Assembly (NCBI RefSeq): GCF_009914755.1
Contig: NC_060939.1
DNA: 64,000 nt
Reading direction: 5' to 3' (one strand)
DNA from: the human T2T-CHM13v2.0 reference genome, Homo sapiens
Under the pieces are notes generated by a model that was not told the DNA's origin, did no database searches, and worked only from the letters and a program-made list of their open reading frames with translations. The translations under genes and the position numbers were made by a program. Position 1 is the first letter of the stretch. Each line of letters begins with the position of its first letter. Shown piece by piece: positions 49,851-50,772 of this stretch.

Positions 49851-50250
49851 ATAAGAAATCGCAGTGTGGGCCCACGCGCGCCGCACGGCCGGGTCGCCGC
49901 CGTACCGTGGTGTACGTGCAGAATGCGCAGAGCGAGCGGCACCCGCTTACCCTGCGCTCCTCCGCAGCCTGGGCCGGGCCGCCCGGGACGCTGAGGCGGT
50001 GGCGGCAGCCGAGGGGGCCGGTCTTGCGCTCCGCAGGCTCGCGCGCCCGAGCCCGGGTTGCCGTTCGCCGCACAGGCCGCGTTCTCTCAGCCCACGGCGG
50101 CGATTAGGCGCTGAGGCGGCCGCCTGCGCTGCGCCGGAGCCTAGGACTCGGAAGCGACCCGGCCGAGGGCCCTGGGTGCCAGCCTCCTTGAGTCAAGGGT
50201 AGCGGGTGCATGGCGCAGTGACGGCCCCTATCTCTCTCTCCGCTCCCCAG

Positions 50251-50772
50251 CCTCGGGCGAGGCCGTCCGGCCGCACCCCTCCTGCTCAGCTGCGGTCGCC
50301 ATGGCCAATGACAGCTGCGGGCCCGGCGAGCCGAGCTCGAGCGAGCGAGACCGGCAGTACTGCGAGCTGTGCGGGAAGATGGAGAACCTGCTGCGCTGCA
50401 GCCACAGCTCCTTCTGCTGCAAGGAGCGCCAGCGCCAGGACTGGAAGAAGCACAAGCTCGTGTGCCAGGGCAGCGAGGGCGCCCTCGGCCACGGAGGGGG
50501 CCCTCACCAGGACTCCGGCCCCGCGCCGCCCGCTGCAGCGCCGCCGTCCAGGGACCGGGCCCTGGAGGCCAGGAAGGCAGCGAGGCGCCGGGACAGCGCC
50601 TCCGGGGACGCAGCCAAGGCAAAGGCCAAGTCCGCGGCCGACCCCGCGGCGGCCGCGTCTCCGCCTCGCGCGTCCCCGGGCCGGACAAAAGCCATGGCTG
50701 CTTGTTATCCGGTCAATGGAACGGGTTATGTACGTCATGTTGATAATCCAAATGGAGACGGAAGACGTGTGA
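50251..50772 (+). pseudogene. SCAND2P: SCAND2P exonised retrocopy segment in a shifted frame (173 aa; 306 aa with the SCAN exon)
   Basis: Acceptor tctctctctccgctccccag|; phase 0 continues the SCAN exon as [11 protein letters not shown]...METEDV*; perfect donor AAG|GTAAGT at 50809. Confidence 0.75.

What the first reader, a model, noticed from the sequence alone, without database searches (positions are those of the whole stretch)
49871..50300. Retrocopy imported a CpG island and an HRE core from its hypoxia-inducible parent
Seen: TACGTG at 49913-49918, 388 nt upstream of the EGLN1-frame ATG, inside the TSD-bounded insert. CpGs remain dense from 49870 to 50700 despite the copy's divergence. 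Established (recalled): EGLN1 is HIF-induced through an HRE roughly 0.4-0.5 kb upstream of its ATG. Inference: a transplanted hypoxia-responsive promoter or enhancer that could drive retrocopy RNA or affect SCAND2P, ZSCAN2 or WDR73.
Basis: partly seen in the sequence, partly recalled or inferred. Interest (0 to 1): 0.7.

Follow-up and report, generated by a model that had tools for sequence, protein, structure and literature searches.

The report
PHD2 hypoxia switch copied into pseudogene
A processed pseudogene of the oxygen-sensor gene EGLN1 carried along its parent's CpG island and hypoxia-factor binding site, and published data indicate that the copied site is still unmethylated and bound in hypoxic human cells, although no effect on gene output has been shown.

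Summary
TACGTG lies at 49913-49918, 388 nt before the EGLN1-frame ATG at 50301. It sits inside an insert with a poly(A) tail and a 10-bp target-site duplication (49861-70 and 52495-504). The insert's first about 830 nt form a CpG island (GC 0.75, observed/expected CpG 0.94).

The insert starts at parental position -456. Its TACGTG aligns base for base with the only TACGTG in EGLN1 -424/+3, the fragment shown to hold the single HIF-binding site of the PHD2 promoter.

CpGs have not decayed. 88 of 118 parental CpGs are kept and 10 read TG/CA. In the non-island 3' exon 3 of 9 are kept.

A published HIF1beta ChIP-seq supplement lists a peak at hg19 chr15:85176735 in hypoxic RCC4, MCF7 and SK-MEL-28. 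Enrichment is 13.5, 91.5 and 75.3-fold and methylation 0.2-10.8%. It maps to within about 30 nt of the motif.

Import, hypomethylation and occupancy are therefore supported. Transcriptional output is untested, and SCAND2P does not track the HIF metagene in TCGA breast tumours (r = -0.05).

This is a new example of a known kind, a retrocopy that inherits parental promoter sequence.

The parts
49861..49870 (.). 5' target-site duplication GCAGTGTGGG
   Evidence: Exact 10-bp repeat of 52495-52504
49871..52475 (+). EGLN1P1 processed retrocopy body: parent exon 1 from -456 to CDS nt 395, then exons 2-5 without introns; about 0.5 kb of exon-1 coding sequence is missing
   Evidence: Own-genome searches place the pieces on C1 at 230804716-230805565, 230757204-326, 230753788-932, 230750793-865 and 230748232-230749707; alignments
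49871..50700 (.). Imported CpG island (parental 5'UTR/promoter-proximal sequence plus the start of the CDS)
   Evidence: GC 0.745, 108 CpG, o/e 0.94; 88 of 118 parental CpGs retained and only 10 TG/CA
49902..50303 (+). Equivalent of the minimal hypoxia-responsive PHD2 promoter fragment P2P(-424/+3); 90.0% identical over 402 aligned bases, 25 gap columns
   Evidence: Coordinate map; the fragment's properties from PMC3300025 passages
49913..49918 (+). TACGTG, copy of the parental HIF-binding site (parent -413..-408); it lies in an 18-nt block identical to the parent (49905-49922)
49442..50805 (.). Approximate footprint of the published MCF7 HIF1beta ChIP-seq peak (hg19 chr15:85176236-85177599); its summit maps to about 49911-49941
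   Evidence: The mapping uses recalled hg19 gene starts, checked by RCGTG count: 5 sites as published, obtained only for shifts of 0 to +30 nt within +/-3 kb
50251..50808 (+). SCAND2P exon 2, made entirely of retrocopy sequence. The acceptor lies at parental -75. The donor AAG|GTAAGT lies at the former EGLN1 exon 2/3 junction
   Evidence: Hub annotation; splice contexts and ORF; exon junction
50301..50792 (+). Residual EGLN1-frame ORF of 163 aa, carrying in-frame deletions relative to the parent
51823..52041 (-). Antisense Alu fragment inherited from the parental 3'UTR, present in both parent and copy
52476..52488 (+). Poly(A) tail of 13 A
52495..52504 (.). 3' target-site duplication GCAGTGTGGG

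Best explanation
EGLN1P1 is an L1-type processed retrocopy made from an EGLN1 (PHD2) transcript that began at or upstream of -456. That is about 57 nt upstream of the position matching the RefSeq mRNA 5' end. The cDNA therefore carried the promoter-proximal CpG island, the single HIF-binding site (parent -412) and the annotated start-site region into intron 1 of SCAND2P. SHOWN: the homology; the boundaries; the intact 8-mer GTACGTGC; and CpG retention equal to that of the active parent, which implies long-term germline hypomethylation. SHOWN IN PUBLISHED DATA (a supplement read here): the island is 0.2-10.8% methylated and carries a strong HIF1beta ChIP-seq peak centred on or near the motif in three hypoxic or VHL-null cell lines. 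INFERRED: in hypoxia HIF-alpha/ARNT binds the unmethylated TACGTG in this constitutively open island. It then acts as it does on the parental -424/+3 fragment, with low basal but hypoxia-inducible initiation or pause release. The expected products are EGLN1P1 or SCAND2P-exon-2 RNAs. The effect is probably small beside SCAND2P's own promoter 2 kb upstream.
For: The retrocopy hallmarks and the parent locus are established. The insert starts at parent -456, 49913 maps to -413 and 49927 to -399. The parent has RCGTG only at -412 and -157 within -424..+3, and the -157 site is lost in the copy. PMC3300025 passages report a single HBS; P2P(-424/+3) keeps high hypoxic inducibility but loses normoxic activity, which needs -607..-424. 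For CpGs, 88 of 118 parental sites are kept and 10 read TG/CA in the copy, against 9 copy CpGs that read TG/CA in the parent, so the losses are symmetric. In the non-island 3' exon 3 of 9 are kept and 4 of 9 read TG/CA (Fisher p=0.015 and 0.009). In PMC7384226 Additional file 3, chr15:85176735 has enrichment 13.5/91.5/75.3 (RCC4/MCF7/SK-MEL-28), is classed 'shared', and has methylation 10.8/2.7/0.23%. In Additional file 2 the MCF7 peak is chr15:85176236-85177599, 50.6-fold, with 5 RCGTG and 2.7% methylation. The parent peak in the same tables scores 133.5/117.8/87.6. The coordinate map was validated by RCGTG count. [quoted passage not shown] Every 50-mer over the motif differs from the parent at 6-10 positions. 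The copy/parent enrichment ratio varies (0.10, 0.78, 0.86), which is unlike cross-mapping. All 10 table entries beginning 8517 were seen, and this is the only chr15 peak in 85.170-85.180 Mb, so it is not the SCAND2P promoter.
Against: There is no HIF-alpha ChIP, no normoxic control and no TSS or RNA data for this locus. The hg19-to-window mapping starts from recalled gene coordinates, although one search checked it. The exact position of the published HBS (-412) is recalled from Metzen 2005, which was not held. The held text only places it within -424/+3. [quoted passage not shown] RefSeq marks 49815-50164 as a silencer (hub table). The copy lacks the basal-activity region and has 1 GC box where the parent has 3 in -456..-1, plus 3 more in -607..-457. 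The element is 10% diverged with no sign of constraint: the island part is 90.5% identical against 94.6% for the 3' exon. An intact 6-mer is expected 55% of the time by chance, and 6 of 39 identical blocks are 18 nt or longer.
Confidence: 0.55

Rival explanations
1. Bound but inconsequential. HIF occupies the copied site simply because any unmethylated RCGTG in open CpG-island chromatin is bound. The element has no measurable effect on SCAND2P, EGLN1P1 RNA or the neighbouring genes. Its real contribution to the locus is structural: it donates exon 2 and its splice sites to SCAND2P.
For: TCGA-BRCA correlations with the HIF metagene are about 0 for SCAND2P and ZSCAN2 and -0.13 for WDR73, whereas EGLN1 scores 0.25-0.54 in 7 sheets. 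The copy lacks -607..-424 and most GC boxes. There is no sequence constraint beyond neutral expectation. The RefSeq silencer call comes from the hub table. SCAND2P exon 2 is wholly retrocopy-derived.
Against: The parental -424/+3 fragment alone confers strong hypoxic induction in reporters. Occupancy is near parental strength in 2 of 3 lines. Bulk tumour correlations cannot detect a minor isoform from an internal start site.
Confidence: 0.35
2. The island works mainly as a HIF-independent orphan CpG island, either poised or Polycomb-marked or acting as a silencer. The HRE is incidental.
For: RefSeq silencer features lie at 49815-50164 and 50635-50714 (hub table). Their lengths of 350 and 80 nt fit merged 50-bp bins at 10-bp steps, as in ATAC-STARR-seq. 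In that assay silent regions lie in accessible chromatin, about 75% are at promoters, and they are enriched for SP/KLF motifs and bivalent marks. That these features come from that study is my inference.
Against: The assay was normoxic and episomal, so it says nothing about hypoxia. The authors themselves leave the nature of the silent calls open. It does not explain the strong HIF1beta peak.
Confidence: 0.2
3. The ChIP-seq peak is an artefact: reads from the very strong parental EGLN1 peak were mis-assigned to the 90%-identical copy.
For: The parent has one of the strong peaks. 1.3% of 50-mers in 49870-50300 differ from the parent at 1 position or fewer, and 18.9% at 2 or fewer.
Against: Parent-derived reads match the parent perfectly and would map there. 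50-mers over the motif differ at 6-10 positions. The copy/parent ratio ranges from 0.10 to 0.86 between cell lines and falls where copy methylation is highest. The peak spans 1.36 kb, the whole island.
Confidence: 0.05
4. The copied TACGTG is not the functional parental site. The real HBS would then be the GCGTG at -157, which the copy has lost.
For: The held text places the HBS only within -424/+3, and two RCGTG cores lie there.
Against: The truncation at -424 sits 11 nt upstream of TACGTG. I recall -412 from Metzen 2005, which was not held. In hg19 the parental summit chr1:231558026 gives a consistent RCGTG count when placed on the -412 site. The copy is bound although it lacks the -157 core.
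Confidence: 0.04

Closest known systems
Human EGLN1/PHD2 promoter (P2P) with its single HIF-binding site (Metzen 2005, recalled; Wollenick 2012, PMC3300025, passages read)
   Same: The sequence is homologous from -456 to the ATG. The GTACGTGC core and an 18-nt block around it are identical. It is a CpG island, it is unmethylated, and it is occupied by HIF1beta in hypoxia in the same datasets.
   Different: The copy is 10% diverged and has a 24-nt deletion before the ATG. It lacks -607..-424 (basal activity) and the -157 RCGTG, and has fewer GC boxes. It sits inside another gene's intron, and no product is known to be regulated.
Retrocopies that inherit a parental promoter through an upstream start site (Carelli 2016, PMC4772013, passages read; Okamura & Nakai 2008 and Kaessmann 2009, recalled)
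   Same: The retroposed mRNA carried parental sequence upstream of the parent's annotated start site. The mechanism is drawn in that paper's Fig. 2A legend, and about 3% of expressed retrocopies belong to this class.
   Different: Here no retrocopy start site was available to show that the inherited sequence is used as a promoter. What is documented instead is retained binding of a stimulus-specific factor. The copy also fits that paper's second class, integration into a host gene with chimeric splicing.
HIF binding at unmethylated cryptic promoters in retroelements (D'Anna 2020, PMC7384226, abstract, passages and supplements read)
   Same: HIF occupancy depends on an unmethylated RCGTG, and the sequence was delivered by retroposition.
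   Different: Those sites lie in LTR/ERVK elements that are normally methylated and are bound only after demethylation. This one is a gene-derived island that is constitutively unmethylated and bound in all 3 lines.

Membership tests
L1-mediated processed pseudogene (retrocopy) | Introns removed relative to a multi-exon parent elsewhere in the genome | tested here: met
   Five parental exons on C1, spread over about 57 kb, are contiguous in the window
L1-mediated processed pseudogene (retrocopy) | 3' poly(A) tail and flanking target-site duplication | tested here: met
   13 A at 52476-52488 and an exact 10-bp repeat at 49861-70 and 52495-504. Six bases (GTAGCA) separate the tail from the repeat
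CpG island (length >200 bp, GC >0.5, o/e >0.6) | Composition thresholds | tested here: met
   The sliding scan gives 49751-50800: 1050 bp, GC 0.69, o/e 0.96
CpG island (functional sense) | Unmethylated state | tested here: met
   Indirect: CpG retention of 88/118 with symmetric TG/CA changes, against 3/9 in the 3' exon. Direct, from published tables: 10.8, 2.7 and 0.23% in three cell lines. Germline methylation was not measured
Functional hypoxia response element | RCGTG core homologous to a validated site | tested here: met
   The validated site's exact position is recalled; the held text places it within -424/+3
Functional hypoxia response element | HIF occupancy in hypoxic chromatin | tested here: met
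   HIF1beta ChIP-seq peak in 3 of 3 lines in a published supplement. There are no HIF-alpha data, and the coordinate map is partly recalled
Functional hypoxia response element | Motif-dependent hypoxic induction of a reporter or an endogenous transcript | not testable with these tools
   No reporter, CAGE or hypoxia RNA data for this locus were reachable. TCGA-BRCA r=-0.05 for SCAND2P is indirect and negative
Retrocopy with parent-inherited promoter | Parental sequence upstream of the parent's start site lies inside the insert | tested here: met
   The insert starts at -456. RefSeq's pseudogene span starts at 49927, which is -399 and is taken as the parental mRNA 5' end (hub table)
Retrocopy with parent-inherited promoter | The retrocopy's own transcription starts downstream of the inherited sequence | not testable with these tools
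   No TSS data. RefSeq SCAND2P transcripts start at 47888 and enter the copy by splicing at 50251 (hub table)

The most novel reading that the evidence does not exclude
The imported PHD2 promoter fragment is a working, primate-specific hypoxia-inducible internal promoter or enhancer. In hypoxia HIF fires it to produce transcripts that start in the island and splice from 50808 into the downstream SCAND2P exons, or it boosts WDR73 or NMB. Retroposition would then have moved a complete stimulus-response module to a new chromosome and wired a SCAN-domain locus into the HIF pathway.
Probability: 0.2. Interest if true: 0.65.

Novelty: new member of a known kind. Interest (0 to 1): 0.5.

Why it matters
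This is a clean, datable case in which retroposition moved a stimulus-specific transcription-factor site and its protective CpG island to another chromosome. The site stayed unmethylated and occupied for tens of millions of years without evident sequence constraint. That speaks to how CpG islands maintain themselves by sequence alone and how factor-binding landscapes grow.

There is also a practical point. The copy is the only other place in this genome matching the PHD2 promoter region (2 of 2 candidates were self and parent), and it shares identical blocks of up to 35 nt with the parent. ChIP-qPCR, bisulfite or CRISPR reagents aimed at the 'PHD2 HRE' can therefore hit chr15 too. The RefSeq pseudogene span also stops 9 nt short of the motif.

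I found nothing in print on this. EGLN1P1 occurs in 5 papers, and I read the passage in 4 of them. SCAND2 together with hypoxia occurs in 7, and I read passages in 3. None of the passages read, and none of the listed titles or abstracts of the others, discusses it. The ChIP peak sits unlabelled in a supplement.

Tried and rejected
- **Metzen 2005.** The paper was not held under its PubMed id or as PMC1135001. The -412 position is therefore recalled, and is bounded.
- **Text searches for the site.** The 12-nt motif found only one unrelated paper. PHD2 + 'HIF-1 binding site' + 412 found none.
- **Supplement searches by gene name.** Smythies 2019 gave 0 hits in 5 files. Choudhry 2014 gave 0 hits in 12 of 18 files; the other 6 were not searched and are PDFs whose content I did not see. 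D'Anna 2020 gave 0 hits by gene name because its tables are coordinate-only, so I searched it by coordinate instead.
- **Other failed look-ups.** A phrase search 'chr15 8517' found nothing because of tokenisation.
- **EGLN1 and EGLN1P1 in one blood co-expression module.** Rejected as evidence. LDHA/LDHAP4/LDHAP7 and PGK1/PGK1P2 co-cluster in the same table, which points to cross-mapping.
- **SCAND2 induced 4.67-fold by zinc.** It rises alongside HMOX1, PPP1R3C, HIG2, ADM and RAB20. This is suggestive, but the array probe could cross-hybridise with EGLN1, so it is not counted.
- **Fabry methylome.** The gene-average of 36-42% for EGLN1P1 mixes island and gene-body probes and is uninformative.
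- **Motif frequency and block length.** These give no support for selection on the site.
- **Peak listing gaps.** Rows beginning 8515 or 8516 in the D'Anna table were only partly seen (6 of 15 and 6 of 18). I make no claim about peaks in chr15:85.15-85.17 Mb.

Full report
**1. Observation**

The sequence shows TACGTG at 49913-49918 on the + strand. The ATG that opens the EGLN1 reading frame is at 50301, so the spacing is 388 nt. The hexamer itself is unremarkable. It occurs 5 times in the window against 5.5 expected, and 65 of 100 shuffles reached 5.

The stretch 49872-50700 has GC 0.745, 108 CpGs and observed/expected CpG of 0.94. The rest of the retrocopy has 0.39 and the upstream flank 0.42. 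A sliding scan calls one island at 49751-50800.

An exact 10-bp direct repeat, GCAGTGTGGG, lies at 49861-49870 and 52495-52504. A 13-A tail at 52476-52488 follows the last parental base.

**2. What the insert is**

The window's own genome holds exactly one other match to 49872-50700. It is on C1 at 230804716-230805565, minus strand, 86% identical by BLAST (2 candidates, both scored, one being the window itself).

The rest of the copy matches four further C1 segments in order: 230757204-326, 230753788-932, 230750793-865 and 230748232-230749707. This is an intron-less copy of a five-exon gene, EGLN1. About 0.5 kb of exon-1 coding sequence (after CDS nt 395) is missing. The size rests partly on the recalled 426-aa length of PHD2.

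An antisense Alu fragment (51823-52041) is present in both the parent's 3'UTR and the copy. The copy therefore arose in primates, after that Alu inserted. Mismatch identity is 94.6% in the 3' exon (78 of 1447) and 90.5% in the island part (77 of 810). With ape-lineage rates recalled at about 1.1e-9 per site per year, I estimate the age very roughly at 25-50 million years.

**3. Is the motif the parental HRE?**

In the pairwise alignment the insert begins at parental -456. Position 49913 maps to -413, 49927 to -399 and 50301 to +1. 49927 is where RefSeq starts EGLN1P1, and I take it to mirror the parental mRNA 5' end.

The copy's TACGTG aligns to a parental TACGTG inside an 18-nt identical block, CCGTGGTGTACGTGCAGA. 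In the parent the only RCGTG cores between -424 and the ATG are ACGTG at -412 and GCGTG at -157. The copy has lost the latter.

Passages of Wollenick et al. 2012 (PMC3300025) state that the PHD2 promoter has a single functional HIF-binding site. They also state that P2P(-424/+3) retains high hypoxic inducibility and that normoxic activity needs -607..-424. The original mapping paper (Metzen 2005) was not held. I recall that it places the site at -412.

The copy thus contains the whole equivalent of the minimal hypoxia-responsive fragment (49902-50303, 90.0% identical, 25 gap columns). It contains none of the basal-activity region. It has 1 GC box against 3 in the parental -456..-1, plus 3 more in -607..-457.

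**4. The island has not decayed**

Of 118 parental CpGs in the island part, 88 are CpG in the copy and only 10 read TG or CA. Conversely, 9 of the copy's 107 CpGs read TG or CA in the parent. Loss is therefore symmetric between the pseudogene and its active, unmethylated parent.

In the non-island 3' exon only 3 of 9 parental CpGs survive, and 4 of 9 read TG/CA. The Fisher p values are 0.015 and 0.009, on small counts.

I infer that the copied island has been unmethylated in the germline for most of its life. There is no sign of purifying selection. The island part is more diverged than the 3' exon. An intact 6-mer is expected 55% of the time at this divergence, and 6 of 39 identical blocks are 18 nt or longer.

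**5. Published occupancy and methylation**

D'Anna et al. 2020 (PMC7384226) performed HIF1beta ChIP-seq after 16 h at 0.5% O2, with 50-nt reads mapped by Bowtie to hg19, and measured bisulfite methylation in normoxia.

Their Additional file 3 holds 20,613 peaks from three lines. It lists chr15:85176735-85176736 with enrichment of 13.5 (RCC4), 91.5 (MCF7) and 75.3 (SK-MEL-28). A peak is called in all three ('shared'), and methylation is 10.8, 2.7 and 0.23%.

Their MCF7 list gives peak2275 at chr15:85176236-85177599: 50.6-fold, 5 RCGTG, 2.73% methylation. The parental promoter row (chr1:231558026) scores 133.5, 117.8 and 87.6.

I mapped hg19 to the window from recalled gene starts (SCAND2P 85,174,682; ZSCAN2 85,144,217). 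I then tested the map. With the SCAND2P-based offset the MCF7 peak covers window 49442-50805 and contains exactly 5 RCGTG, as published. In a scan of offsets over +/-3 kb, only shifts of 0 to +30 nt give 5. This puts the summit at 49911-49941. The same test on the parent also gives 5.

All 10 table entries beginning 8517 were seen, and this is the only chr15 one, so the peak is not SCAND2P's own promoter island at 47601-48050.

Cross-mapping from the parent is unlikely for two reasons. First, 50-mers over the motif differ from the parent at 6-10 positions. Second, the copy/parent ratio runs 0.10, 0.78 and 0.86 across lines and is lowest where the copy is most methylated.

**6. What is not shown**

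No start-site, reporter or hypoxia RNA data for this locus were reachable.

In the TCGA table of Lombardi et al. 2022 (PMC9869179, Table S1, cut when stored), SCAND2P correlates with the HIF metagene at r=-0.05 (p=0.07) in BRCA. ZSCAN2 scores -0.001 and WDR73 -0.13. EGLN1 appears with r=0.25-0.54 in 7 other sheets.

RefSeq labels 49815-50164 and 50635-50714 as silencers (hub table). Their sizes fit the 50-bp/10-bp binning of ATAC-STARR-seq. In that assay silent regions lie in accessible lymphoblastoid chromatin and mostly at promoters. That these features come from that study is my inference. If correct, it again indicates open chromatin, but with no activating effect in normoxia.

**7. Mechanism and rivals**

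Most likely (0.55), this is a transplanted promoter-proximal module. The CpG density keeps it unmethylated and open, and HIF binds the intact core in hypoxia. The output resembles the parental -424/+3 fragment, low basal and hypoxia-inducible, and is probably minor beside SCAND2P's main promoter.

The rivals are:
- bound but inert (0.35);
- mainly a HIF-independent poised or silencer island (0.2, overlapping the first rival);
- a cross-mapping artefact (0.05);
- the wrong parental core (0.04).

**8. Comparison and novelty**

Inheritance of parental promoter sequence through an upstream start site is a described class, covering about 3% of expressed retrocopies (Carelli 2016, PMC4772013, passages). 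Chimeric splicing into a host gene is described too.

The new element here is the specific case. A stimulus-responsive factor site is retained, unmethylated, and occupied at near-parental strength. I found no discussion of it in print (EGLN1P1, 5 papers; SCAND2 with hypoxia, 7 papers).

My verdict is a new member of a known kind, of moderate interest. It also has a practical consequence for reagents aimed at the PHD2 HRE.

Noticed in passing
window 50251-50808 (with 47888-48726): SCAND2P exon 2 is made entirely of retrocopy sequence. Its acceptor (polypyrimidine tract plus AG) is parental 5'UTR at -75. Its donor AAG|GTAAGT falls at the former EGLN1 exon 2/3 junction. The spliced RefSeq transcript has a 306-aa ORF (48328..50772), the same length as the SCAND2 protein quoted in PMC10049278. 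Of this, 173 aa are read from the EGLN1-derived exon out of the EGLN1 frame.
   Followed up: partly
window 50680-50690, between exon-1 and exon-2 derived parts: The copy lacks roughly 0.5 kb of exon-1 coding sequence (after parental CDS nt 395). It also has a 9-nt in-frame deletion inside the MYND-finger region and a 24-nt deletion of the GCC repeat before the ATG.
   Followed up: partly
window 51823-52041 and L004: An antisense Alu fragment sits in the EGLN1 3'UTR and was copied with it. The retrocopy therefore postdates that Alu. The copy ends at a 3'UTR position beyond which the parental genomic sequence continues.
   Followed up: partly
about window 71,356 (outside the window; hg19 chr15:85198150): The same table lists a second, weaker HIF1beta peak (0.69/13.2/9.6; MCF7 and SK-MEL-28). 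By my offset it lies about 0.7 kb beyond the WDR73 5' end, near the NMB 3' end.
   Followed up: no
window 50208-50219: A three-codon upstream ORF (ATG GCG CAG stop) in the parental 5'UTR is preserved in the copy, with TAA changed to TGA.
   Followed up: no
window 49927 versus 49871: RefSeq's EGLN1P1 span starts 56 nt inside the true insert, so the HIF site falls just outside the annotated pseudogene (hub table).
   Followed up: yes
window 4450-4599, 17284-17333, 17654-17803, 48272-48321, 49815-50164, 50635-50714: These RefSeq enhancer and silencer features have lengths that are multiples of 10 and at least 50 nt. That fits merged 50-bp bins at 10-bp steps, as in ATAC-STARR-seq. The source was not confirmed.
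   Followed up: partly
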